Shown piece by piece: positions 6,013 to 55,456 of a DNA stretch of 64,000 bases. The notes below the pieces were generated by a model, which did no database searches, was not told where the DNA came from, and worked only from the letters and a program-made list of their open reading frames with translations. Each line of letters opens with the position of its first letter. Position 1 is the stretch's first letter. Position numbers and translations under genes: made by a program. This DNA comes from Escherichia coli. GTDB lineage: Bacteria; Pseudomonadota; Gammaproteobacteria; Enterobacterales; Enterobacteriaceae. Location of the stretch: NCBI RefSeq assembly GCF_036507355.1, contig NZ_AP027877.1, one strand, 5' to 3'.

Positions 6013-6128
6013 GCGAGCAGCATTCCTGATTTTAAACGTGAACGCCGCTGGAAGAATTATCAGGTATAGAATGGCGTCGGGTGCTTGAGGCTGTCTGGCG
6101 TTAAGCATTCGCGAGGTTCCAGATGGAC

Positions 6129-6181
6129 AAAAGCCCCAGGCGATATTTCTATCAACCTGAGGCTCGCGTTCGAACGTAGCA
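6129..6181 (-). ncRNA. candidate Sok-like antisense RNA of the hok locus
   Basis: Minus strand: -35 TTGCCT (6216..6211), 17-bp spacer, -10 TAACAT (6193..6188), then about 55 nt ending in an 8-bp hairpin (gcctcagg/cctggggc) plus UUUU; antisense to the hok leader. Confidence 0.4.
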
Positions 6182-6219
6182 ATTCGGATGTTAGTCTCTT
6201 CTTTGCAGGGAGGCAAGAC

Positions 6220-6372
6220 ATGCTAACAAAATATGCCCTTGTGGCAATCATAGTACTGTGTTGTACAGTACTGGGATTCACGCTCATGGTAGGCGACTCG
6301 TTATGTGAGTTGAATATCAGAGAGCGTGGTATGGAGTTTAAGGCAGTTCTCGCTTACGAATCGAAGAAGTAG
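6220..6372 (+). CDS. Hok/Gef-family type I toxin (small membrane peptide)
   Basis: 50-aa product [50 protein letters not shown], closely resembling chromosomal Hok peptides (HokE-like as I recall it); SD gcagggagg upstream; leader begins with the hok-type motif ggtgcttgaggctgtctggc. Confidence 0.8.
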
Positions 6373-29808: not shown

Positions 29809-31887
29809 TTAAATCAATGCCGATTTATCAATTCCCAGTCGCTTCATCCGTGACAGCAGGGTCGTGCGTTTCAGCCCCAGACGTTGCGCAGCGCCTTTAG
29901 GCCCGGCAACCACGCCGTTAGTTTCTTTCAGCACGCGAACAATCAACTGATATTCATCTTCGCCCTCCTGAGCGACAACCGTTGCGGCAGGCGGCGTTTC
30001 AGGCTCCGGTAAAGCAATATCTGGCAATGACAGCTGCAGCACGTTGCCGCGTGTTAGCAATACCGCGCGCTCAATGACGTTTTCCAGTTCGCGTACGTTA
30101 CCCGGCCACTCCATATTGCTCAAGGTGCGCAACGTCTCGGCAGGAATGCTGTCGATATTGCGCCCCAGACGACGGGCAATTTTGAAGGTAAAGGCTTTCG
30201 CCAGCAGCGGAATATCTTCCGGACGCTCGCGTAGTGGCGGAAGGTGAATCGGGAATACGTTCAGGCGGTAATAGAGATCGCTACGGAACTCACGGTCGGC
30301 GACCATTTTTTTCAGATCGCGGTTAGTCGCGGCGATTAGACGCACGTCCGTCTGAATGATTTTGTTGCTGCCGAGGCGTTCAAACTCCTGTTCCTGCAAT
30401 ACACGCAGCAACTTCGGCTGTAACTCCAGTGGCATATCGCCCACTTCGTCGAGGAACAGGGAGCTTTTATCCGCCAGTTCAAAACGACCGATACGCTGGG
30501 CGCTGGCACCGGTAAAAGCCCCACGCTCATGACCAAACAGATCGCTCTCCAGCAATCCGGCAGGCATCGCCGCGCAGTTCATTTTGACCATGCGGCGATT
30601 ATTACGCCCACTGAGATTATGGATAGCACGGGCAATCAGCTCTTTACCCGTGCCAGTTTCACCGAGGATCAGCACGGTACTGTCACTTTGCGCCACCATT
30701 TCAACTTGTTTAAGCACGCTGTACATGGCTTCGCTGCGGCCAATAATCTCGCCAAATTCACTATCAACATTGTTGAGCTGCTCGGTCAGGGCGAGGTTTT
30801 CATCAACCAGCCGTTCTTTCAGACGATGGATTTCCTGATAGGCGAGGGCGTTATCGACAGCGATTGCCACACGTTCGGCAATCTGGCGCAGTAAATTCAG
30901 ATTGGTAGTGGTAAACACTTTCTCTTCACATTGCGCCAGTTTCAGCACGCCCAGCATGGTGTCGCCAGACATCAGCGGTAACAGGCACAAGGTTTGAATC
31001 TGGTTGCCCCAGGTGTCGAACAACATGCGTTCATAGGGGGCTAAATCATCCCGCTCGTGGAGATTAATCAGCAGCATCTCTTTACTTTTGAACACGCGTT
31101 CGGTGAGGGTTCCGGCTTCATCGACTTCGCTCTGTTCGTGGGCGGGATGCTGTTTATCAAGATAGTGAGTGGAGTAGATGTTGAGTTTGTTTTTACGGTG
31201 GCTGCGTAAGACGATACTGATATCGTCAATATCGAAATAGTAATGGATTTCTTTGGCGACTTCGCTGACCAGTTCGTCCATATCCAGGCGGGAAAGCACC
31301 GCGTTGGTGATGGCGACCAGGATGCGGAAGTTATCGCGTTCCCGGCATAACAACTCATAGTCGACATTGTTAACGACGCGACTCTGGATTTGTTCGGTGA
31401 CGACAGAAACGATCTGCGTAAATGTTTGCAGACGATTGAACTCTTTTTCGCTCCAGGGGCGATCGTCATAACGAATAAATTCACAGCCACCAAAAATATG
31501 CCCTTCCGCCGCCAGTGGCATCAGGCAATAGTGAGCAAATTTTGGGTATAGCCCACCTGCGGCCAGCTGCGGCCAGGTTTCACAAAATTCTTCGTAACTG
31601 CAATGCAGCGTATCAGGGCGCGACAAAATGCTGCGTACCGGACCGTGTGCCAGAACAGTTTCGTCTTCATATTTAATGGGGGTGTCTTTTTCACGCGATG
31701 CGTAATAAGACGCACGTTGAGTCTGCGCTTGCCACAACACAATAGCCGCGTTGTCGGCGAGCGCAGAACGCTTTACCAGTTGCGAAAGAGCCTCACACAG
31801 CGAGGCCAGATCGGGCTGCTGCAATAGTGTCCGAGTGATGTCGAACAACCCTTGCTGTCCGAGATCACTCATCGGTGTATATGACAT
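29809..31887 (-). CDS. fhlA: formate hydrogenlyase transcriptional activator (sigma-54 dependent)
   Basis: ORF 29809..31923; start at internal MSYTPMSDLGQQGLFDITR (692 aa); AAA+ motifs GETGTGKE and GAFTGA; C-terminal HTH. Confidence 0.95.
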   Translation of the reverse strand: MSYTPMSDLGQQGLFDITRTLLQQPDLASLCEALSQLVKRSALADNAAIVLWQAQTQRASYYASREKDTPIKYEDETVLAHGPVRSILSRPDTLHCSYEEFCETWPQLAAGGLYPKFAHYCLMPLAAEGHIFGGCEFIRYDDRPWSEKEFNRLQTFTQIVSVVTEQIQSRVVNNVDYELLCRERDNFRILVAITNAVLSRLDMDELVSEVAKEIHYYFDIDDISIVLRSHRKNKLNIYSTHYLDKQHPAHEQSEVDEAGTLTERVFKSKEMLLINLHERDDLAPYERMLFDTWGNQIQTLCLLPLMSGDTMLGVLKLAQCEEKVFTTTNLNLLRQIAERVAIAVDNALAYQEIHRLKERLVDENLALTEQLNNVDSEFGEIIGRSEAMYSVLKQVEMVAQSDSTVLILGETGTGKELIARAIHNLSGRNNRRMVKMNCAAMPAGLLESDLFGHERGAFTGASAQRIGRFELADKSSLFLDEVGDMPLELQPKLLRVLQEQEFERLGSNKIIQTDVRLIAATNRDLKKMVADREFRSDLYYRLNVFPIHLPPLRERPEDIPLLAKAFTFKIARRLGRNIDSIPAETLRTLSNMEWPGNVRELENVIERAVLLTRGNVLQLSLPDIALPEPETPPAATVVAQEGEDEYQLIVRVLKETNGVVAGPKGAAQRLGLKRTTLLSRMKRLGIDKSALI

Positions 31888-35227: not shown

Positions 35228-35578
35228 TCACTCCTGGTCTATTTCTATCCGCCGAATCTGTAAACCGTCGTCTGCCACAATCTGTAGCATGTCACCATGA
35301 CACTGTGGACAGCGGCGGACGCGCTGGGTCAGTAGCGTCACATACTGTTGGCATGTTTCACACCAGCATTCGGCCTCTTGTTCTTCGAGGTGCAGTTTAC
35401 AACCTTCCGCCACGCTGCCGCGGCAAACCAGATCAAAACAAAAGGCAAGAGAGCTGGTTTCGACACAAGAAAATGCGCCAATTTTGAGCCAGACCCCAGT
35501 TACGCGTTTTGCGCCGTGTTTTGCGGCCTGCTGTTCGATCAATTCCAGTGCCCGTTGGCAGAGGGTTATTTCGTGCAT
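35228..35578 (-). CDS. hypA: hydrogenase nickel insertion protein HypA
   Basis: ORF 35228..35590; start at internal MHEITLCQRA (116 aa); zinc CxxC pairs. Confidence 0.93.
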   Translation of the reverse strand: MHEITLCQRALELIEQQAAKHGAKRVTGVWLKIGAFSCVETSSLAFCFDLVCRGSVAEGCKLHLEEQEAECWCETCQQYVTLLTQRVRRCPQCHGDMLQIVADDGLQIRRIEIDQE

Positions 35579-35609
35579 ATCGCCTCCCATTAACTATTGC
35601 CAGCTACAA

Positions 35610-35625
35610 GCAATAATTGTGCCAG
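35610..35625 (-). promoter_or_regulatory. sigma-54 (-24/-12) promoter for the hyp operon
   Basis: Minus strand reads CTGGCAC-AATTA-TTGC, about 30 nt upstream of hypA. Confidence 0.6.
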
Positions 35626-35737
35626 TGTTGATTATCCCTGCAGTGAATAATGTCGATGATGTCGAAATGACACGTCGACACGGCGACGAAATTCACCAAA
35701 ATCTTAAAAATCGCTTTAATAACAATAAATTGAAAGT

Positions 35738-35752
35738 TGGCACAAAAAATGC
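35738..35752 (+). promoter_or_regulatory. sigma-54 (-24/-12) promoter for the hyc operon
   Basis: TGGCAC-N5-aTGC (GG-N10-GC) about 40 nt upstream of hycA. Confidence 0.6.
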
Positions 35753-35789
35753 TTAAAGCTGGCATCTCTGTTAAACGGGTAACCTGACA

Positions 35790-36251
35790 ATGACTATTTG
35801 GGAAATAAGCGAGAAAGCCGATTACATCGCACAGCGGCATCGTCGCCTACAGGACCAGTGGCACATCTACTGCAATTCGCTGGTTCAGGGGATCACGTTA
35901 TCGAAAGCGCGCCTGCATCACGCCATGAGCTGCGCGCCGGACAAAGAACTCTGTTTCGTCCTTTTTGAACATTTTCGTATTTACGTCACCCTTGCGGATG
36001 GCTTTAACAGCCACACCATCGAGTATTACGTCGAAACAAAAGAGGGCGAAGACAAACAGCGGATTGCGCAGGCGCAACTGAGCATTGACGGCATGATTGA
36101 TGGCAAGGTCAACATCCGCGATCGCGAACAGGTTCTGGAACACTATCTCGAAAAAATCGCTGGTGTTTACGACAGCTTATACACCGCCATTGAAAACAAT
36201 GTGCCGGTGAATTTAAGCCAACTGGTAAAGGGACAAAGCCCGGCAGCATGA
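35790..36251 (+). CDS. hycA: formate hydrogenlyase regulatory protein HycA
   Basis: 153-aa ORF at the head of the hyc operon. Confidence 0.9.
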   Translation: MTIWEISEKADYIAQRHRRLQDQWHIYCNSLVQGITLSKARLHHAMSCAPDKELCFVLFEHFRIYVTLADGFNSHTIEYYVETKEGEDKQRIAQAQLSIDGMIDGKVNIRDREQVLEHYLEKIAGVYDSLYTAIENNVPVNLSQLVKGQSPAA

Positions 36252-36375
36252 GCTGAGGCTTTGCCCGTTTTGCAGGCGTTACGCCTGTTTGGGGATGGGC
36301 GTGTCGATGAGTGTCGAAAATGACATTTCATCTGCATGTTTTCGTCAAAAATGACAATCACCTGAGGAATGCCTG

Positions 36376-36987: not shown

Positions 36988-38810
36988 GCGCAATTTCCCT
37001 GATCAATAGCGGCGTGGCGTGGTTTGTCGCCGCCGCTGTTCTGGCATTTCTCTTTTCTTTTCAAAAGGCGCTAAGCGGCTGGATAGCCGGAATTGGCGGC
37101 GCGGTTGGTAGTCTGTATACGGCAGCCGCGGGCTTCACTGTACTGACTGGCGCGGTTGGCGTGAGCGGTGCGCTGTCGCTGGTAAGCTACGATGTGCAAA
37201 TCTCTCCGCTTAACGCGATTTGGCTGATTACGCTCGGTCTGTGCGGTCTGTTTGTCAGCCTCTACAACATTGACTGGCATCGCCACGCGCAGGTGAAGTG
37301 CAACGGCTTGCAGATCAATATGTTGATGGCTGCCGCCGTCTGCGCCGTCATCGCCAGCAACCTCGGCATGTTCGTGGTAATGGCCGAAGTCATGGCCTTG
37401 TGCGCGGTGTTCCTCACCAGCAACAGCAAAGAGGGCAAGCTGTGGTTTGCGCTGGGGCGTTTTGGCACTCTGCTGCTGGTGATTGCTTGCTGGCTGCTGT
37501 GGCAGCGTTATGGCACGCTGGATCTGCGCCTGCTGGATATGCGTATGCAACAGCTGCCGCTCGGTTCCGATATCTGGCTGCTCGGTGTGATTGGCTTTGG
37601 CCTGCTGGCCGGGATTATTCCGCTACATGGCTGGGTGCCGCAGGCACATGCTAACGCCTCTGCGCCAGCTGCCGCGTTGTTTTCTACGGTAGTCATGAAA
37701 ATTGGCCTGCTGGGCATTTTAACCCTGTCACTGCTGGGCGGTAATGCACCGCTGTGGTGGGGGATCGCGCTGCTGGTGCTCGGTATGATCACCGCGTTTG
37801 TCGGCGGTCTGTATGCGTTGATGGAACATAATATCCAGCGTCTACTGGCTTACCACACCCTGGAAAATATCGGCATTATCCTGCTGGGGCTGGGCGCTGG
37901 CGTAACGGGTATCGCGCTCGAACAACCGGCGCTGATTGCTCTTGGCCTGGTCGGTGGTCTGTACCATCTGCTTAACCACAGCCTGTTCAAAAGCGTACTG
38001 TTCCTCGGGGCGGGGAGCGTCTGGTTCCGTACCGGTCATCGCGATATCGAAAAACTCGGTGGTATTGGCAAGAAAATGCCGGTTATCTCCATCGCCATGT
38101 TAGTCGGGTTGATGGCAATGGCTGCGCTGCCGCCGCTGAACGGGTTTGCCGGGGAATGGGTTATCTATCAATCCTTTTTCAAACTGAGCAATAGTGGCGC
38201 GTTTGTTGCCCGTCTGCTGGGGCCGCTGCTCGCTGTGGGGCTGGCAATTACCGGTGCGCTGGCGGTGATGTGTATGGCGAAAGTCTATGGCGTCACGTTC
38301 CTCGGCGCGCCGCGTACCAAAGAAGCCGAAAACGCTACCTGTGCACCGCTCCTGATGAGCGTAAGCGTAGTGGCACTGGCGATTTGCTGCGTAATTGGCG
38401 GTGTTGCTGCGCCGTGGCTACTGCCGATGCTCTCTGCTGCTGTACCTCTGCCGCTGGAGCCTGCTAACACCACCGTTTCTCAACCGATGATCACGTTGCT
38501 GCTGATTGCCTGCCCGCTGCTGCCATTCATCATTATGGCGATTTGCAAAGGCGATCGTTTGCCATCGCGTTCCCGCGGTGCGGCCTGGGTGTGCGGTTAC
38601 GACCACGAAAAATCAATGGTGATTACCGCTCACGGTTTTGCCATGCCGGTGAAACAGGCGTTTGCGCCGGTGCTGAAACTGCGCAAATGGCTGAATCCGG
38701 TGTCGCTGGTGCCGGGCTGGCAGTGCGAGGGGAGTGCGTTGCTGTTCCGCCGGATGGCGCTGGTTGAACTGGCGGTACTGGTGGTGATTATTGTTTCACG
38801 AGGAGCCTGA
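36984..38810 (+). CDS. hycC: formate hydrogenlyase subunit 3 (membrane antiporter-like)
   Basis: 608-aa polytopic membrane ORF. Confidence 0.93.
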   Translation: MSAISLINSGVAWFVAAAVLAFLFSFQKALSGWIAGIGGAVGSLYTAAAGFTVLTGAVGVSGALSLVSYDVQISPLNAIWLITLGLCGLFVSLYNIDWHRHAQVKCNGLQINMLMAAAVCAVIASNLGMFVVMAEVMALCAVFLTSNSKEGKLWFALGRFGTLLLVIACWLLWQRYGTLDLRLLDMRMQQLPLGSDIWLLGVIGFGLLAGIIPLHGWVPQAHANASAPAAALFSTVVMKIGLLGILTLSLLGGNAPLWWGIALLVLGMITAFVGGLYALMEHNIQRLLAYHTLENIGIILLGLGAGVTGIALEQPALIALGLVGGLYHLLNHSLFKSVLFLGAGSVWFRTGHRDIEKLGGIGKKMPVISIAMLVGLMAMAALPPLNGFAGEWVIYQSFFKLSNSGAFVARLLGPLLAVGLAITGALAVMCMAKVYGVTFLGAPRTKEAENATCAPLLMSVSVVALAICCVIGGVAAPWLLPMLSAAVPLPLEPANTTVSQPMITLLLIACPLLPFIIMAICKGDRLPSRSRGAAWVCGYDHEKSMVITAHGFAMPVKQAFAPVLKLRKWLNPVSLVPGWQCEGSALLFRRMALVELAVLVVIIVSRGA

Positions 38811-42782: not shown

Positions 42783-43189
42783 GTGAAAAGGTGGTGTTCA
42801 GTCAACTGAGCCGTAAATTTATTGATGAGAACGATGCCACGCCCGCCGAGGCGCAGCAGGTGGTCTATTACAGCCTGGCGATTGGTCACCACCTTGGGGT
42901 TATCGATTGCCTGGAAGCGGCGCTCACCTGCCCGTGGGATGAATATCTGGCATGGATTGCCACTCTGGAGGCGGGCAGCGAAGCCCGCCGCAAAATGGAA
43001 GGTGTGCCGAAATATGGTGAGATCGTCATCGACATTAACCATGTGCCGATGCTGGCCAATGCATTCGATAAAGCCCGGGCAGCGCAAACTTCGCAGCAGC
43101 AGGAATGGAGTACAATGCTGTTAAGTATGCTGCATGATATTCATCAGGAAAACGCCATCTATTTGATGGTGAGGAGACTGCGTGACTGA
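42779..43189 (+). CDS. hycH: formate hydrogenlyase maturation protein HycH
   Basis: 136-aa ORF in conserved position. Confidence 0.9.
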
Positions 43190-43652
43190 CGTTTTACTCT
43201 GTGTTGGCAATAGCATGATGGGCGATGATGGCGCAGGTCCGCTGCTGGCGGAAAAGTGCGCCGCCGCGCCGAAAGGTAACTGGGTGGTGATTGACGGCGG
43301 TAGCGCACCGGAAAACGACATCGTCGCTATCCGTGAACTGCGCCCTACACGACTGCTGATTGTCGACGCCACGGATATGGGGCTAAACCCCGGCGAGATC
43401 CGCATCATCGACCCGGATGACATCGCCGAGATGTTTATGATGACTACCCATAACATGCCGTTGAACTACCTTATCGACCAGTTAAAAGAAGACATTGGCG
43501 AAGTGATTTTCCTCGGCATCCAGCCGGATATCGTCGGCTTTTACTACCCGATGACCCAGCCGATTAAAGATGCGGTAGAAACGGTTTATCAACGACTGGA
43601 AGGCTGGGAAGGGAATGGCGGCTTCGCGCAGTTAGCGGTAGAAGAAGAATAA
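43182..43652 (+). CDS. hycI: hydrogenase 3 maturation endopeptidase
   Basis: 156-aa [27 protein letters not shown]. Confidence 0.93.
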   Translation: MTDVLLCVGNSMMGDDGAGPLLAEKCAAAPKGNWVVIDGGSAPENDIVAIRELRPTRLLIVDATDMGLNPGEIRIIDPDDIAEMFMMTTHNMPLNYLIDQLKEDIGEVIFLGIQPDIVGFYYPMTQPIKDAVETVYQRLEGWEGNGGFAQLAVEEE

Positions 43653-43676
43653 TTCTTCATCAGGGAATTCAGGGAA

Positions 43677-44450
43677 TTGAACATCAGAACAGGGATGTGC
43701 GCTTTTTTATTGAGCTTAGTGCAGTCTGCACAGGCCACCAGCTTTACCGAATATCTGCCAATGAGTGGCAGCGAATATGCGCAAAAGCGGGCGCTGAAAC
43801 CTCTCCTGACCATGCCTTATTATACCGAGCAAACTTGGCATTTTAGAAAAATCGGCGTTGCTGGCGTGACGCTTGAGAAGATGCCAAATGAAGAGGATTA
43901 CTGGCAATTAACCGCTAAAGACCGCGCGGGTAAATCCTGGACGGTGCCAGTGGGGTTGCTGGCAAATATGGCGGGCAAAGGGCAGCTCTATCGCGCCGAT
44001 CTGGATCGTAACGGCATTCAGGATCTGGTTATCTGGTTGCCAAGTGCCGGTAATGGTCTGGCGCCCTATGCACATTTAATCCTCATGACGTTCACGCACG
44101 AAGGCCGTCCCTGTGTCTTTGAACCCTGGGGATTCTACACTGCAAGCAAAACTGGCGTAGATGATTTGCTGGATTTACAAGGCAATGGTCACACGCAATT
44201 GCTGGATATGCAGTTTAATTCTGGTTACTGGATAACCAGTCTGTATCAGGTAAAAGACGCCAAATGGCAGCGTGTTCACGGCTGGTTTGGCAAGTTAAGC
44301 TATCCCGCGCTCACGCGTTTTACTTATACCCCCAACCGTAAACTCGTCCTCAAACCCATCGCCGGGCGCGACACACAAACGGAAGATCTGTCGCTGACGC
44401 AGCGTTGCTTGATAAAGGGGGATATGCTTGATGGGGTGAATCAGAACTGA
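43677..44450 (+). CDS. secreted protein of unknown function with two FG-GAP-like D-x-D-x-N-G-x-x-D loops
   Basis: 257-aa ORF starting 24 nt after the hycI stop; N-terminal signal peptide (CAFLLSLVQSAQA|TS); motifs ADLDRNGIQDLVIW and DLLDLQGNGHTQLLD. Confidence 0.6.
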   Translation: MNIRTGMCAFLLSLVQSAQATSFTEYLPMSGSEYAQKRALKPLLTMPYYTEQTWHFRKIGVAGVTLEKMPNEEDYWQLTAKDRAGKSWTVPVGLLANMAGKGQLYRADLDRNGIQDLVIWLPSAGNGLAPYAHLILMTFTHEGRPCVFEPWGFYTASKTGVDDLLDLQGNGHTQLLDMQFNSGYWITSLYQVKDAKWQRVHGWFGKLSYPALTRFTYTPNRKLVLKPIAGRDTQTEDLSLTQRCLIKGDMLDGVNQN

Positions 44451-44611
44451 CTTTTTGCAGAGTGGTTATGAGGATTTTGGGGGTAATTATATCACGCGCA
44501 AGTGTTTACATATTGTGAACTTGGATTTGATGAGCTATAGTTTCCGAACACATGAGGATAGAACTCGCAGATGTGGCTGTTTACTTACTATAAGGAAGTT
44601 AAAACTTAAAA

Positions 44612-44923
44612 ATGCACATCATTTCTAAAGCGCCATTTGAAGAGTCTGCGCGTAAATATCCTAACGACGCTCTGGCTCTTCAGGCATTGTATCGGGTTAT
44701 TAAGGAAACGGATTTTTCTACGCCAGAAGAAATGCGAACGGCTTTTCCCAACCTCGACAATTTTAAATATCGCAACAAATGGTACGTTCTGGATGTCGGC
44801 GGGAACAATCTTAGGGTTATTGCCTACATAAACTTTGTTAATAAGCGGTTCTTTGTGAAGCACATAACGAATCACGCAGAGTATGACAAACTGACACGTT
44901 ACTACAGAGAGAACAAAGAATGA
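44612..44923 (+). CDS. HigB-like type II toxin (RelE/ParE superfamily)
   Basis: 103-aa ORF MHIISKAPFEESARKYPND ... FPNLDNFKYRNKWYVLDVGGNNLRVIAYINF, collinear with E. coli HigB as recalled; toxin gene precedes and overlaps the antitoxin gene (ATGA), the inverted order typical of higBA. Confidence 0.75.
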   Translation: MHIISKAPFEESARKYPNDALALQALYRVIKETDFSTPEEMRTAFPNLDNFKYRNKWYVLDVGGNNLRVIAYINFVNKRFFVKHITNHAEYDKLTRYYRENKE

Positions 44924-45339
44924 CTGCTAATGCTGCACGCGCTGTTAAAGCAACAAGAGAACTGGTCAATGCAGTCCCCTTTCTGGGAGGCAGTGACTCA
45001 GAAGATGATTATCGTGAAGCACTGGAACTGGTCGAATATTTGATTGAAGAAGATGACACCAATCCACTTATCGACTTTCTGGCGAGCCGCATTGCAGAGT
45101 ATGAAAACAACAACGAAAAGTTTGCAGAGTTCGACAAAGCCGTTGCGGCAATGCCGGTTGGCGTGGCGTTACTTCGCACGTTGATTGATCAACATAATCT
45201 GACCTATGCGGATTTGAAGAACGAAATCGGCTCTAAATCCCTGGTCAGTCAGATTTTGTCTGGACAACGATCCCTGACAATATCCCACATTAAGGCACTT
45301 TCAGCCCGATTTGGCGTTAAGCCGGAATGGTTTCTTTGA
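44920..45339 (+). CDS. HigA-like antitoxin (C-terminal XRE-type HTH)
   Basis: 139-aa ORF with C-terminal HTH region GSKSLVSQILSGQRSLTISHIKALSARFGV. Confidence 0.75.
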   Translation: MTANAARAVKATRELVNAVPFLGGSDSEDDYREALELVEYLIEEDDTNPLIDFLASRIAEYENNNEKFAEFDKAVAAMPVGVALLRTLIDQHNLTYADLKNEIGSKSLVSQILSGQRSLTISHIKALSARFGVKPEWFL

Positions 45340-45365
45340 TTTTGACTGATGCCAAACTCCAGATT

Positions 45366-45444
45366 GCCCGATGCGCAGTGCTTATCGGGCCTGCATAGTT
45401 CGTGCGACATGTAGGCCGGATAAGGCGTTCACGCCGCATCCGGC
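45366..45444. repeat. BIME-like pair of REP palindromes
   Basis: gcccgatgcgcagtgcttatcgggc and ggccggataaggcgttcacgccgcatccggc. Confidence 0.65.
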
Positions 45445-45452
45445 ACGGTTGC

Positions 45453-48343
<2,891 letters not shown>

Positions 48344-48602
48344 CGGATTTTATCCTGTTATCAGTAGGGTAGATGTAGTTGTTATCAGTCGACGTGACGG
48401 AAAAATGCCGATGCTGAAACGGAATTAGGAAACCGGTTTCATAAAATCATGAACAGTTGTCACTAAATAAGCAAGAGAGTGAATTGTTCATTTTTTATAT
48501 TTGTGAAACCGGTCACCTGAATATTTTTCCCGCCGATTGCGCAAGGACAATCGGTAAACGGTGCAGTACACTGCGTTGATTGCGTGTAAAGGGATGAAAA
48601 TG

Positions 48603-49613
48603 ATGACGACGATGCTGGAAGTGGCGAAGCGCGCCGGGGTTTCAAAAGCGACCGTTTCCCGCGTGCTTTCAGGTAATGGCTACGTCAGCCAGGAGACTAA
48701 AGATCGCGTGTTTCAGGCGGTAGAAGAGAGCGGTTACCGCCCAAACTTGCTGGCGCGCAATCTGTCGGCGAAGAGTACTCAGACGCTGGGGCTGGTAGTG
48801 ACCAACACGCTTTACCACGGCATTTATTTTAGTGAATTACTCTTTCATGCCGCGCGAATGGCGGAAGAGAAAGGGCGGCAGTTGCTATTGGCAGATGGTA
48901 AACACAGCGCCGAAGAAGAGCGCCAGGCGATTCAGTATCTGCTGGATTTGCGCTGCGACGCCATTATGATTTACCCGCGTTTTTTAAGCGTGGATGAGAT
49001 CGATGACATCATTGACGCGCACAGTCAGCCGATAATGGTGCTTAATCGCCGCCTGCGCAAAAACAGCAGCCATAGCGTCTGGTGCGATCATAAACAGACC
49101 AGTTTTAACGCCGTGGCAGAGTTGATAAACGCCGGGCATCAGGAGATTGCTTTCCTTACCGGCTCGATGGATTCCCCCACCAGCATTGAACGTCTTGCCG
49201 GGTATAAAGACGCGCTGGCGCAGCATGGTATTGCGCTCAATGAAAAACTTATCGCTAACGGTAAATGGACGCCCGCCAGCGGGGCCGAAGGGGTAGAAAC
49301 GTTGCTCGAACGTGGGGCTAAATTTAGCGCGTTAGTTGCCAGTAACGACGATATGGCGATAGGTGCGATGAAAGCGTTACACGAGCGCGGCGTAGCGGTG
49401 CCAGAGCAGGTGTCAGTTATCGGATTCGATGATATCGCAATTGCCCCCTATATCGTTCCAGCGCTCTCCAGCGTAAAAATTCCGGTGACTGAGATGATTC
49501 AGGAAATTATTGGACGGCTGATTTTTATGCTCGATGGCGGGGATTTCTCACCGCCGAAAACCTTCAGCGGAAAACTGATCTGCCGCGACTCACTCATTGC
49601 TCTTTCGCGATAA
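48603..49613 (+). CDS. ascG: LacI-family repressor of the asc operon
   Basis: ORF 48561..49613; start at internal MTTMLEVAKRAGVSKATVSRVL (336 aa). Confidence 0.92.
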   Translation: MTTMLEVAKRAGVSKATVSRVLSGNGYVSQETKDRVFQAVEESGYRPNLLARNLSAKSTQTLGLVVTNTLYHGIYFSELLFHAARMAEEKGRQLLLADGKHSAEEERQAIQYLLDLRCDAIMIYPRFLSVDEIDDIIDAHSQPIMVLNRRLRKNSSHSVWCDHKQTSFNAVAELINAGHQEIAFLTGSMDSPTSIERLAGYKDALAQHGIALNEKLIANGKWTPASGAEGVETLLERGAKFSALVASNDDMAIGAMKALHERGVAVPEQVSVIGFDDIAIAPYIVPALSSVKIPVTEMIQEIIGRLIFMLDGGDFSPPKTFSGKLICRDSLIALSR

Positions 49614-49761
49614 ACATTGTCATCACATGTCATCGTCACTAGTGTCGATGACATCTTTTTTCCTGCATTACAGAAATTAATTTCCTTAAATAACAGTGAA
49701 TTAAAAACTGGCATGATTTGTGAGTGTATCGGCGCATTAACTGTCATTGCTGGAGAATTTG

Positions 49762-55392: not shown

Positions 55393-55440
55393 AGCAACCT
55401 CAATTTATTCAGCGTGTTCTAAAAAGATGTCTTGCTAATT

Positions 55441-55456
55441 GCAGATTGCGTGCCAG
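55441..55456 (-). promoter_or_regulatory. sigma-54 (-24/-12) promoter of norVW
   Basis: Minus strand reads CTGGCAC-GCAAT-CTGC, about 50 nt upstream of norV. Confidence 0.65.

What the first reader, a model, noticed from the sequence alone, without database searches (positions are those of the whole stretch)
35590..35790. Divergent sigma-54 promoters of the hyp and hyc operons
Both strands carry recognisable -24/-12 elements: CTGGCAC-N5-TTGC toward hypA and TGGCAC-N5-aTGC toward hycA. They flank a 110-bp region that should hold the FhlA enhancer sites. This is the expected formate regulon architecture and was read directly here.
Basis: partly seen in the sequence, partly recalled or inferred. 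Interest (0 to 1): 0.2.

Follow-up and report, generated by a model that had tools for sequence, protein, structure and literature searches.

The report
Known divergent hyc/hyp sigma-54 promoters

Summary
Confirmed and already known. The window is Escherichia coli. The 211-bp hypA-hycA intergenic region (35579-35789) carries CTGGCACAATTATTGCT (35625->35609, minus strand, toward hypA) and TTGGCACAAAAAATGCT (35737-35753, plus strand, toward hycA). These are exactly the 17-mers that sigma-54 occupies in K-12 by ChIP-seq (Bonocora 2015, sites OS28 and OS27, both 'experimentally confirmed' in EcoCyc). A sigma-54 matrix built from 38 other sites ranks them 1st and 3rd of 128,000 positions in the window. 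Both elements are present in all 88 orthologous divergent hycA-hypA loci I recovered across Enterobacterales. Between them lie a conserved FhlA-type enhancer block (core TGTCGAAATGACA, 35660-35672) and an IHF-like site (35720-35732).

The 113-bp spacer holds only one of two enhancer clusters. A second, near-invariant cluster lies between hycA and hycB (36301-36356). Comparative spacing shows the central enhancer keeps fixed distances to the hyc promoter in steps of about 11 bp (43, 54-57 or 64-67 nt). The hyp promoter lies anywhere from 35 to 632 nt from it. Interest is low. The spacing pattern and the consistently non-consensus -12 element of hyc are minor new details.

The parts
35609..35625 (-). 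hyp (hypABCDE-fhlA) sigma-54 promoter, CTGGCACAATTATTGCT. -24 GG at 35623/35622 and -12 GC at 35611/35610.
   Evidence: PWM rank 1 of 128,000 positions. Identical to K-12 ChIP-seq site OS28, FAT 201. TGGCAY-N5-TTGC is present in 88 of 88 orthologous loci, and position 13 is T in 89 of 89 distinct sequences.
35598..35598 (-). Predicted hyp transcription start, 19 bp downstream of the motif centre, giving a 20-nt leader to hypA ATG at 35578.
   Evidence: Inference from the rule used in PMC4591121 Table 1, where the distance listed for hypA is 20. Not mapped here.
35737..35753 (+). hyc (hycABCDEFGHI) sigma-54 promoter, TTGGCACAAAAAATGCT. -24 GG at 35739/35740 and -12 GC at 35751/35752. It has ATGC rather than the consensus TTGC.
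   Evidence: PWM rank 3. Identical to K-12 ChIP-seq site OS27, FAT 91. Present in 88 of 88 orthologous loci, 34-37 nt from hycA ATG in the closer relatives (HycA identity 50% or more).
35764..35764 (+). Predicted hyc transcription start, giving a 26-nt leader to hycA ATG at 35790.
   Evidence: Same rule; PMC4591121 Table 1 lists distance 26 for hycA. Not mapped here.
35643..35696 (.). UAS-1, a FhlA-type enhancer block: repeated TGTCG/TGACA/CGACA pentamers, core TGTCGAAATGACA at 35660-35672. It contains an exact published half-site CGAAATG at 35663-35669 and a one-mismatch copy at 35687-35693. Outer inverted repeat GTGAATAATGTCG / CGACGAAATTCAC.
   Evidence: It is one of only three pentamer clusters in the window (0.45 expected). 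The core is invariant across the 56 aligned compact (216 bp or shorter) intergenic regions. The same word family occurs upstream of hydN and of K-12 fdhF. It sits at fixed, roughly 11-bp-stepped distances from the hyc -24 element.
35720..35732 (+). IHF-like core TAACAATAAATTG (WATCAANNNNTTR with one mismatch), preceded by an A/T-rich tract and ending 5 nt before the hyc TGGCA.
   Evidence: 23 of 89 orthologs match perfectly and 25 of 89 have one mismatch, nearly all at the same 5-6 nt offset, against 0.5% and 8.9% in shuffled sequence. The hydN promoter has the same arrangement. IHF binding itself was not tested here; its role at hyc is recalled from Hopper et al. 1994 (not held).
36301..36356 (.). 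UAS-2, a second FhlA-type cluster in the hycA-hycB spacer: GTGTCGATGAGTGTCGAAAATGACA...TTTTCGTCAAAAATGACA. It lies about 730 bp upstream of the hyp start and about 565 bp downstream of the hyc start.
   Evidence: TTTCGTCAAAAATGAC (36340-36355) is invariant or nearly invariant in an alignment of 67 sequences, from Escherichia to Serratia. Its assignment as the hyp enhancer is my recollection of Schlensog et al. 1994 and Hopper et al. 1994, not verified here.
35790..36251 (+). hycA, first gene of the hyc operon, encoding the FhlA antagonist (negative feedback).
   Evidence: NCBIfam NF007567 equivalog, 300.6 bits against a cut-off of 180; annotation.
35228..35578 (-). hypA, first gene of the hyp operon.
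   Evidence: NCBIfam NF002979 at 241.8 bits and TIGR00100 at 147.9 bits; annotation.
29809..31887 (-). fhlA, the cognate sigma-54 enhancer-binding protein, last gene downstream of hypE (positive feedback).
   Evidence: NCBIfam NF011958 equivalog, 1546.5 bits against a cut-off of 830, covering profile positions 1-692 of 692; gene order.

Best explanation
This is the control region of the E. coli formate regulon. RNA polymerase carrying sigma-54 sits as a closed complex on two back-to-back -24/-12 promoters, with predicted starts 166 bp apart. One faces hypABCDE-fhlA (start about 35598, minus strand) and the other faces hycABCDEFGHI (start about 35764, plus strand). Neither can fire alone. The formate-sensing AAA+ activator FhlA is encoded at the end of the hyp operon in this same window. 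It binds clusters of TGTCG/TGACA-type repeats, and ATP hydrolysis then opens the promoters by DNA looping.

UAS-1 (35643-35696) lies about 98 bp upstream of the hyc start. An IHF-like bending site lies immediately upstream of the hyc -24 element. This is the same layout as the hydN and fdhF promoters, so UAS-1 is primarily the hyc enhancer. The hyp promoter is a near-perfect sigma-54 site with no distance-locked enhancer of its own. It is activated by looping from UAS-1 and/or from UAS-2 (36301-36356, between hycA and hycB).

fhlA sits in the hyp operon and hycA (the anti-FhlA protein) in the hyc operon, giving coupled positive and negative feedback.

Shown here: the sequences, their statistics, gene identities, conservation and spacing. 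Taken from papers: sigma-54 occupancy, sigma-54 dependence and FhlA/formate dependence. Inferred: start sites, IHF binding and which enhancer serves which promoter.
For: Both -24/-12 elements are present and correctly oriented 30 and 36 nt upstream of the start codons. They rank 1st and 3rd with a PWM built without them, with exact tail probabilities of 6e-9 and 6e-7 per position. The region is identical to K-12 at both promoters and at the UAS core.

K-12 sigma-54 ChIP-seq gives the same 17-mers, with FAT 201 and 91, and EcoCyc lists both as 'confirmed' (PMC4591121). Salmonella has homologous ChIP-chip sites 113 bp apart, with 26-fold (hyc) and 5.6-fold (hyp) sigma-54-dependent up-regulation (PMC3844500). 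RNAP-sigma-54 bound the spacer in vitro in genomic SELEX (PMC8743547). No sigma-70 ChIP peak was seen at hyc under anaerobic growth (PMC3688515). hyc, hyp, hydN-hypF and fdhF are listed as FhlA/formate-dependent (PMC4987338; PMC11841067).

All 88 loci with divergent hycA-hypA, out of the 120 loci fetched across Enterobacterales, keep both elements. GG and GC never change while the spacer bases vary. FhlA, HycA and HypA are intact.

An unbiased pentamer-cluster scan finds only three clusters in 64 kb. All three are at formate-regulon sites: UAS-1, UAS-2 and the region upstream of hydN. fdhF in K-12 has the same words.

The distance from the UAS-1 core to the hyc -24 element is 43, 54-57 or 64-67 nt in 70 of 70 loci. 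It stays at 66-67 nt when the spacer grows to 239-801 bp. An IHF-like core sits at a fixed offset far more often than in shuffled sequence.
Against: No transcription start was mapped in this strain, and I could not read the primary mapping and footprinting papers (Lutz 1990; Schlensog 1994; Hopper 1994; Leonhartsberger 2000 are not held). The published 16-bp FhlA consensus CATTTCGTACGAAATG has no match with 5 or fewer mismatches inside the spacer; only half-sites match, so calling the block 'FhlA sites' rests on conservation and on similarity to other FhlA-dependent upstream regions. The ChIP-seq data show binding under aerobic M9 growth, not transcription. On PWM score alone the hyc site is only borderline window-wide under a dinucleotide-aware null. 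The division of labour between UAS-1 and UAS-2 is inferred from spacing and from memory of the literature.
Confidence: 0.95

Rival explanations
1. The two -24/-12 look-alikes are chance matches in an A/T-rich spacer, and the operons are driven by ordinary sigma-70 promoters.
For: A sigma-70 consensus scan finds two weak 9-of-12 matches in 35300-36000. Under a first-order Markov null a score like that of hyc (17.3) is not rare in 64 kb. An FNR ChIP peak is reported nearby.
Against: The two sigma-70-like hits are no more than about one standard deviation above expectation (2 found, 0.8 +/- 0.9 expected). No sigma-70 ChIP peak was seen at hyc anaerobically. Sigma-54 ChIP-seq peaks lie on exactly these 17-mers. 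GG and GC are invariant in 88 of 88 orthologous loci at a fixed distance from the start codons.
Confidence: 0.01
2. One reading: the 113-bp spacer contains the whole enhancer apparatus: one shared central UAS serves both promoters symmetrically, and nothing outside the spacer is needed.
For: UAS-1 lies between the promoters, at about -98 from hyc and about -68 from hyp, both within looping range. In the compact loci the hyp-to-UAS distance is also stepped, at 41-43 or 53-57 nt. The outer arms of UAS-1 form an inverted repeat.
Against: A second cluster of the same motif, more strongly conserved than UAS-1, lies between hycA and hycB. In Buttiauxella, Cedecea and Shimwellia, REP-like insertions push the hyp promoter 130-630 nt from UAS-1, while the UAS-1 to hyc distance stays at 66-67 nt. 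The IHF-like site lies on the hyc side only. My recollection of Schlensog 1994 and Hopper 1994 is that the hyp UAS maps between hycA and hycB.
Confidence: 0.2
3. The conserved hycA-hycB block (UAS-2) is not a DNA enhancer but an RNA-level element of the hyc transcript, for example one controlling hycB translation or mRNA processing. In that case UAS-1 would be the only enhancer.
For: The block lies inside the hyc transcription unit. Its invariant part ends about 10-20 nt before the hycB ribosome-binding site in every locus.
Against: It is built from the same TGTCG-AAA-TGACA words as UAS-1, hydN and fdhF, which lie upstream of promoters. No Rfam family matches there. My recollection of the literature is that FhlA binds there.
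Confidence: 0.07
4. A third sigma-54 promoter inside hycA (GTGGCACATCTACTGCA, 35858-35874, plus strand) gives a transcript that skips most of hycA and expresses hycB-I without the anti-activator.
For: PWM score 16.1, rank 4 in the window, in the sense orientation. Intragenic sigma-54 sites are common and some are functional (PMC4591121).
Against: The motif is spelled by the conserved codons Trp-His-Ile-Tyr-Cys-Asn. The Cys codon is TGT in many orthologs, which destroys the -12 GC, and the motif is lost entirely in distant HycA sequences. It is absent from the ChIP-seq tables and the held supplements, although it might be masked by the strong neighbouring peaks.
Confidence: 0.05

Closest known systems
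E. coli K-12 hycAp and hypAp (Lutz et al. 1990, Mol Microbiol 4:13; EcoCyc 'confirmed'; Bonocora et al. 2015 sites OS27 and OS28)
   Same: Same locus. Both 17-mers, the UAS-1 core, the leader lengths (26 and 20 nt) and the 211-bp spacer length are identical.
   Different: Eight substitutions relative to MG1655, at 35642, 35696, 35698-35700, 35702, 35713 and 35732. Most lie in the stretch between UAS-1 and the IHF-like core; 35696 is the last base of the UAS-1 outer arm, and 35732 is the last base of the IHF-like core (G instead of A, still R).
Salmonella Typhimurium LT2 hycA/hypA sigma-54 promoters (Samuels et al. 2013, PMC3844500)
   Same: Divergent pair, the same 113-bp separation between TGGCA hexamers, and bound by sigma-54.
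   Different: TGGCAT rather than TGGCAC, and different spacer bases (TGGCATGGAAAATGCTTA and TGGCATAAATATTGCTTT).
hydN-hypF and fdhF promoters of the same FhlA/formate regulon
   Same: Sigma-54 -24/-12 element with a cluster of TGWCR/YGWCA repeats centred about 100 bp upstream. hydN also has the same A/T-rich IHF-like block abutting its -24 element.
   Different: They are single promoters, not a divergent pair. hydN has a poor -12 element (GTGAG).
zraP / zraSR divergent sigma-54 promoters of E. coli (ZraR enhancer between them; Leonhartsberger et al. 2001; OS38 and OS39 in PMC4591121)
   Same: Two back-to-back sigma-54 promoters about 150 bp apart, with the activator gene in one of the two operons (for the sites; the regulation is from established knowledge).
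   Different: Different activator, signal and enhancer sequence. I know of no second remote enhancer there.

Membership tests
Sigma-54 (RpoN) -24/-12 promoter | GG and GC doublets one helical turn apart, in the context TGGCAC-N5-TTGCW | tested here: met
   hyp: TGGCACAATTATTGCT, a full consensus match. hyc: TGGCACAAAAAATGCT, with one departure (A for the first T of TTGC)..
Sigma-54 (RpoN) -24/-12 promoter | Placed upstream of a gene and oriented toward it, with a short leader | tested here: met
   The 17-mers end 30 nt (hypA) and 36 nt (hycA) before the start codons. The same offsets, 27-34 and 34-37 nt, recur in the closer orthologs.
Sigma-54 (RpoN) -24/-12 promoter | Occupied by sigma-54 holoenzyme in vivo or in vitro | not testable with these tools
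   Reported for the identical K-12 sequence: ChIP-seq FAT 91 and 201 (PMC4591121) and genomic SELEX (PMC8743547). Also ChIP-chip in Salmonella.
Sigma-54 (RpoN) -24/-12 promoter | Transcription start about 12 nt downstream of the GC doublet, with rpoN-dependent expression | not testable with these tools
   Starts are predicted at 35764 and 35598. The mapping in Lutz et al. 1990 is not held. EcoCyc status 'confirmed' is quoted, and sigma-54-dependent up-regulation in Salmonella.
Sigma-54 (RpoN) -24/-12 promoter | Conserved in orthologous regulatory regions | tested here: met
   88 of 88 loci with divergent hycA-hypA keep both elements. Loci were anchored on the hypA N-terminus, not on the promoters.
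FhlA-dependent enhancer (formate regulon UAS) | Match to the published FhlA consensus CATTTCGTACGAAATG (Leonhartsberger et al. 2000, quoted in PMC4987338) | tested here: inconclusive
   No 16-mer with 5 or fewer mismatches lies in the spacer. The half-site CGAAATG is exact at 35663-35669 and has one mismatch at 35687-35693. UAS-2 has a 5-mismatch match at 36338-36353.
FhlA-dependent enhancer (formate regulon UAS) | Shares its repeat motif with other FhlA-dependent upstream regions, at about -70 to -140 | tested here: met
   TGWCR/YGWCA clusters (at least 4 in 45 bp) occur only at UAS-1, UAS-2 and upstream of hydN in 64 kb (0.45 expected). K-12 fdhF has six in about 60 bp. UAS-1 lies at -83 to -113 from hyc, the hydN cluster at -85 to -123, and the fdhF cluster at about -77 to -137.
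FhlA-dependent enhancer (formate regulon UAS) | Cognate activator gene present and intact | tested here: met
   fhlA at 29809-31887 (minus strand), NF011958 equivalog, 1546.5 bits, full length.
FhlA-dependent enhancer (formate regulon UAS) | Bound by FhlA and required for formate induction | not testable with these tools
   Known from Schlensog et al. 1994 and Leonhartsberger et al. 2000 (my recollection; the papers are not held).
IHF-assisted sigma-54 promoter | IHF core WATCAANNNNTTR with an upstream A/T tract, between enhancer and promoter | tested here: inconclusive
   The window has a one-mismatch core at 35720-35732. Orthologs carry perfect or one-mismatch cores at the same offset in 48 of 89, against about 9% in shuffled sequence. 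Binding was not tested.

The most novel reading that the evidence does not exclude
Comparative spacing suggests an asymmetric design that I have not seen described for this locus. The central enhancer is locked to the hyc promoter at distances that change only in steps of about 11 bp (43, 54-57 or 64-67 nt), which implies strict face-of-the-helix geometry with the IHF bend. The hyp promoter floats 35 to 632 nt away and must be fired by distance-independent looping from either enhancer. In parallel, the hyc -12 element is never allowed to reach consensus (position 13 is A, C or G in 89 of 89 sequences and never T), whereas hyp is always consensus. That hints at selection for a deliberately weaker or more activator-dependent hyc promoter next to a very strong sigma-54 binding site.
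Probability: 0.4. Interest if true: 0.3.

Novelty: already known. Interest (0 to 1): 0.1.

Why it matters
It matters little as a discovery, because this is one of the classic sigma-54 control regions, described in 1990 and re-confirmed by genome-wide ChIP. Its value here is as a positive control. Reading the raw sequence identified two real promoters correctly, and a simple PWM plus a repeat-cluster scan recovered four of the five K-12 sigma-54 ChIP sites that lie in the window (the weak hydN site needed a direct pattern search) and all three FhlA-type enhancer clusters found there. The comparative data add small mechanistic details (enhancer tethered to hyc, floating hyp promoter, helical-turn indels, sub-consensus hyc -12 element). 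These could guide promoter engineering for biohydrogen strains.

Tried and rejected
1. Scanning for the published 16-bp FhlA consensus. The best hits in the window (4 mismatches) are at unrelated places and none lies in the spacer, so the full palindrome is not a usable search model; half-sites and pentamer clusters work instead.
2. Retrieving the primary papers or reviews for start-site and footprint coordinates (PMC176951, PMC11575713, PMC135417, PMC2737912). None is held, and full-text searches for the hycA-hycB UAS found nothing.
3. A sigma-70 promoter and terminator scan gave only weak matches at about chance level.
4. The 27-nt mirror similarity of the two promoters, which extends downstream of -12 (I1), was considered as evidence of an inverted duplication or a shared initiation-region signal. 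It was rejected as general because the extension is confined to Escherichia.
5. The intragenic hycA motif as a third promoter was rejected as most likely a coding by-product.
6. The Rayleigh test for 11-bp periodicity of promoter spacing gives a very small nominal P. I do not trust that number because lineages share ancestry. Only about 6-7 independent indel events underlie it.
7. An Rfam scan found no RNA family in or near the region.
Full report
**What is there.** Window 35579-35789 is a 211-bp spacer between two divergent genes. On the left, on the minus strand, is hypA (35228-35578). On the right, on the plus strand, is hycA (35790-36251). Both score above the curated NCBIfam cut-offs: HypA NF002979 at 241.8 bits and HycA NF007567 at 300.6 bits. 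The sigma-54 activator FhlA is intact downstream of hypE at 29809-31887 on the minus strand (NF011958, 1546.5 bits, full length). The DNA is Escherichia coli: a 1.1-kb query matches 5425 of 5426 complete genomes, with a best identity of 99.6%, and RefSeq annotates the same genes. Against K-12 MG1655 the spacer has the same length and 8 substitutions, most in the stretch between the enhancer block and the IHF-like core; 35696 is the last base of the UAS-1 outer arm and 35732 the last base of the IHF-like core. Both promoter elements and the enhancer core are identical to K-12.

**Checking the observation.** The minus strand reads CTGGCACAATTATTGCT at 35625->35609. The plus strand reads TTGGCACAAAAAATGCT at 35737-35753. 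The TGGCAC hexamers are 113 bp apart. TGGCACNNNNNWTGC occurs twice in the 64-kb window, both times here (0.51 expected). I built a log-odds matrix from 38 E. coli sigma-54 ChIP-seq sites, leaving out the four intergenic sites that lie in this window. It ranks the hyp site first (21.2 bits), the known norV promoter second (18.2) and the hyc site third (17.3) among 128,000 positions. Exact tail probabilities are 6e-9 and 6e-7 per position. That gives about 1e-6 and 1e-4 expected hits on the correct strand of the spacer. A first-order Markov simulation is several-fold less generous. The hyc site alone would therefore be unremarkable window-wide. Its placement, orientation and pairing are what make it significant.

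**Independent experimental evidence from papers.** Bonocora et al. 2015 (PMC4591121, Table 1) list OS27 TTGGCACAAAAAATGCT (hycA, FAT 91, distance 26) and OS28 CTGGCACAATTATTGCT (hypA, FAT 201, distance 20). FAT 201 is the highest occupancy in the table. Both are marked 'C', meaning experimentally confirmed in EcoCyc. Their rule places the start 19 bp downstream of the motif centre. Applied here, it puts the starts at 35764 (+) and 35598 (-), with leaders of 26 and 20 nt, matching their table.

Samuels et al. 2013 (PMC3844500) found the homologous pair in Salmonella by ChIP-chip, again 113 bp apart. They also measured sigma-54-dependent up-regulation of hyc (26-fold) and hyp (5.6-fold). Genomic SELEX with reconstituted RNAP-sigma-54 picks the same spacer (PMC8743547). 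Myers et al. 2013 saw no sigma-70 peak at hyc under anaerobic growth and noted the sigma-N site (PMC3688515). The original description is Lutz et al. 1990, 'Characterization of divergent NtrA-dependent promoters...'. I saw the reference but the paper is not held.

**Comparative test.** I anchored a genome-contig scan on the degenerate coding sequence of the HypA N-terminus (MHEITLCQ), not on the promoters. Of 120 loci fetched, 88 have a divergent hycA homologue (HycA identity 31-100%). These come from Escherichia, Citrobacter, Enterobacter, Kluyvera, Kosakonia, Buttiauxella, Cedecea, Serratia, Rahnella, Hafnia and others. Every one has TGGCAY-N5-TTGC toward hypA and TGGCAY-N5-VTGC toward hycA. 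In the closer relatives (HycA identity 50% or more) these sit at nearly constant distances from the start codons, 27-34 nt and 34-37 nt; in the more distant genera the offsets widen to 61 nt (hyp) and 99 nt (hyc). In an alignment of 56 distinct compact spacers, the invariant or near-invariant blocks are:
- the hypA Shine-Dalgarno sequence;
- the two -24/-12 elements;
- a central block TG(A/T)CG-AAA-TGACA-YGTC;
- an A/T-rich block AATCAAT...TTAAAAA abutting the hyc -24 element.

**The enhancer sites.** The published FhlA consensus CATTTCGTACGAAATG (Leonhartsberger et al. 2000, quoted in PMC4987338) has no good full-length match in the spacer. Only half-sites match: CGAAATG is exact at 35663-35669, and CGAAATT lies at 35687-35693. 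The central conserved block is made of TGTCG/TGACA/CGACA pentamers.

I scanned the whole window for 45-bp stretches with at least four such pentamers. Exactly three clusters came back, against 0.45 expected:
- 35636-35695, in the spacer (UAS-1);
- 36312-36356, in the hycA-hycB spacer (UAS-2);
- 49603-49672, just upstream of the hydN sigma-54 promoter at 49708-49724.

The K-12 fdhF upstream region carries six of the same pentamers in about 60 bp. Every FhlA-dependent promoter I could examine therefore has this signature about 100 bp upstream. UAS-2 begins with almost the same sequence as UAS-1 (TGTCGATGAGTGTCGAAAATGACA against TGTCGATGATGTCGAAATGACA). Its 3' part, TTTCGTCAAAAATGAC, is invariant or nearly invariant in an alignment of 67 sequences, from Escherichia to Serratia. 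My recollection of Schlensog et al. 1994 and Hopper et al. 1994 is that FhlA binds both places and that the hycA-hycB site is the hyp UAS. I could not verify this because the papers are not held.

**Which enhancer serves which promoter (inference).** The distance from the UAS-1 core to the hyc TGGCA takes only the values 43, 54-57 or 64-67 nt in 70 of 70 loci where the core is recognisable. It stays at 66-67 nt in Buttiauxella, Cedecea and Shimwellia, where REP-like insertions enlarge the spacer to 239-801 bp. All of that extra DNA lies between the hyp promoter and UAS-1, so the hyp-to-UAS-1 distance ranges from 35 to 632 nt.

An IHF-like core (WATCAANNNNTTR; the window has TAACAATAAATTG at 35720-35732) ends 5-6 nt before the hyc TGGCA. 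It is a perfect match in 23 of 89 orthologs and has one mismatch in 25 of 89, against 0.5% and 8.9% in shuffled sequence. The hydN promoter has the same block.

UAS-1 therefore behaves as the hyc enhancer, with IHF-assisted, phase-dependent geometry. The hyp promoter has no distance-locked enhancer and must rely on looping from UAS-1 and/or UAS-2.

**Mechanism.** E-sigma-54 forms closed complexes on both promoters; ChIP shows occupancy even without induction. Formate-bound FhlA at the enhancers hydrolyses ATP and opens the promoters by looping, with IHF bending the DNA at hyc. fhlA lies in the hyp operon (positive loop) and hycA, the FhlA antagonist, is the first hyc gene (negative loop). The feedback logic and the formate response are established knowledge (PMC11841067 and PMC11291172), not tested here.

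**Rivals.** Chance matches or sigma-70 control are excluded by the ChIP data, the conservation and the weak sigma-70 scan. A single symmetric shared enhancer remains possible for the compact loci, but it fits the expanded loci and the existence of UAS-2 poorly. An RNA-level role for UAS-2 cannot be excluded, although the block is built from the same DNA words as the promoter-upstream enhancers. A fourth high-scoring sigma-54 motif inside hycA (35858-35874, 16.1 bits) follows the codons W-H-I-Y-C-N and loses its GC wherever Cys is TGT. It is not in the ChIP tables, so it is most likely a coding by-product.

**Minor new observations.**
- Spacing between the two promoters clusters at 89, 99-100, 111-113 and 122-124 bp (best period about 11.5 bp). 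The nominal P is inflated by shared ancestry.
- Position 13 of the 17-mer, the first T of TTGC, is T in 89 of 89 hyp promoters. In hyc promoters it is A, C or G and never T, in 89 of 89. It is T in 28 of 38 other E. coli sites.

**Verdict.** The feature is already known and its interest is low.

Noticed in passing
window 36301-36356: A second FhlA-type repeat cluster lies in the hycA-hycB spacer, starting with almost the same sequence as the central enhancer. TTTCGTCAAAAATGAC (36340-36355) is invariant or nearly invariant in an alignment of 67 sequences, from Escherichia to Serratia, and always sits just upstream of the hycB ribosome-binding site.
   Followed up: yes
window 35858-35874 (+), inside hycA: GTGGCACATCTACTGCA is the fourth-best sigma-54 PWM hit in the window (16.1 bits), in the sense orientation. 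It is encoded by the conserved codons Trp-His-Ile-Tyr-Cys-Asn. The -12 GC is lost wherever Cys is TGT, and the site is not listed in the K-12 ChIP-seq tables.
   Followed up: yes
window 35749 (hyc) vs 35613 (hyp); loci L003-L122: The first T of the -12 TTGC is T in 89 of 89 distinct hyp promoters. In hyc promoters it is A (40), G (35) or C (14) and never T, although 28 of 38 other E. coli sigma-54 sites have T there. This may reflect selection for a sub-consensus hyc promoter.
   Followed up: partly
loci L003-L122 (orthologous hycA-hypA spacers): Indels in the spacer come in steps of about 11 bp. The enhancer core lies 43, 54-57 or 64-67 nt from the hyc -24 element, and the inter-promoter gap is 89, 99-100, 111-113 or 122-124 bp. 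This is consistent with a face-of-the-helix constraint, but only about 6-7 independent events underlie it.
   Followed up: partly
L074, L093, L066, L035, L086, L025, L050, L103 (Buttiauxella, Cedecea, Shimwellia): G+C-rich, REP-like palindromic repeats (for example ...ccctctccc...gggagaggg...gggtgaggg...) are inserted between the hyp promoter and the enhancer. They enlarge the spacer to 239-801 bp without disturbing the enhancer-to-hyc distance.
   Followed up: partly
window 49603-49724 (+): The hydN-hypF control region has a pentamer cluster at 49603-49672, an IHF-like block AATAACAGTGAATTAAAAA and the sigma-54 element CTGGCATGATTTGTGAG at 49708-49724. That element has one mismatch to the K-12 ChIP site OS26 (...GTGAA). 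The architecture is the same as at hyc.
   Followed up: partly
window 55440-55456 (-) and 38194-38210 (+): Two further K-12 sigma-54 ChIP-seq sites are present with identical sequence: the norV promoter CTGGCACGCAATCTGCA (OS25) and the intragenic hycC site GTGGCGCGTTTGTTGCC (IS31).
   Followed up: no
window 35598-35624 and 35738-35764: The two promoters are mirror images over 27 nt (81% complementary). The similarity extends past -12 into GCTT.NAGCTGGCA around the predicted starts. The extension is seen only in Escherichia, not in other genera.
   Followed up: partly
about window 35559, inside hypA: Myers et al. 2013 report an FNR ChIP-seq summit at U00096.2 position 2,848,688, which maps about 19 bp inside hypA. 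They assign it to hyc as direct repression. I saw no obvious TTGAT-N4-ATCAA match there by eye.
   Followed up: no
window 43000-49000: The segment between hycI and ascB/ascG is variable. Only 1909 of 5426 complete E. coli genomes cover at least 80% of it. It carries HTH/HigA-like genes and a short repeat found about 32 times per genome. The window is about 1 kb longer here than strain 14EC033.
   Followed up: no
window 6079-6235 (+): The only Rfam gathering-threshold hit in the window is a sok antitoxin RNA of a hok/sok-type locus (RF01794, 105 bits).
   Followed up: no
whole window; L057: No complete E. coli genome is closer than 99.1-99.6% in the two stretches tested. A 6.6-kb MAG contig labelled Citrobacter (DXKH01000118.1) encodes HycA and HypA 100% identical to the window, so that contig is probably a mis-binned E. 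coli contig.
   Followed up: no
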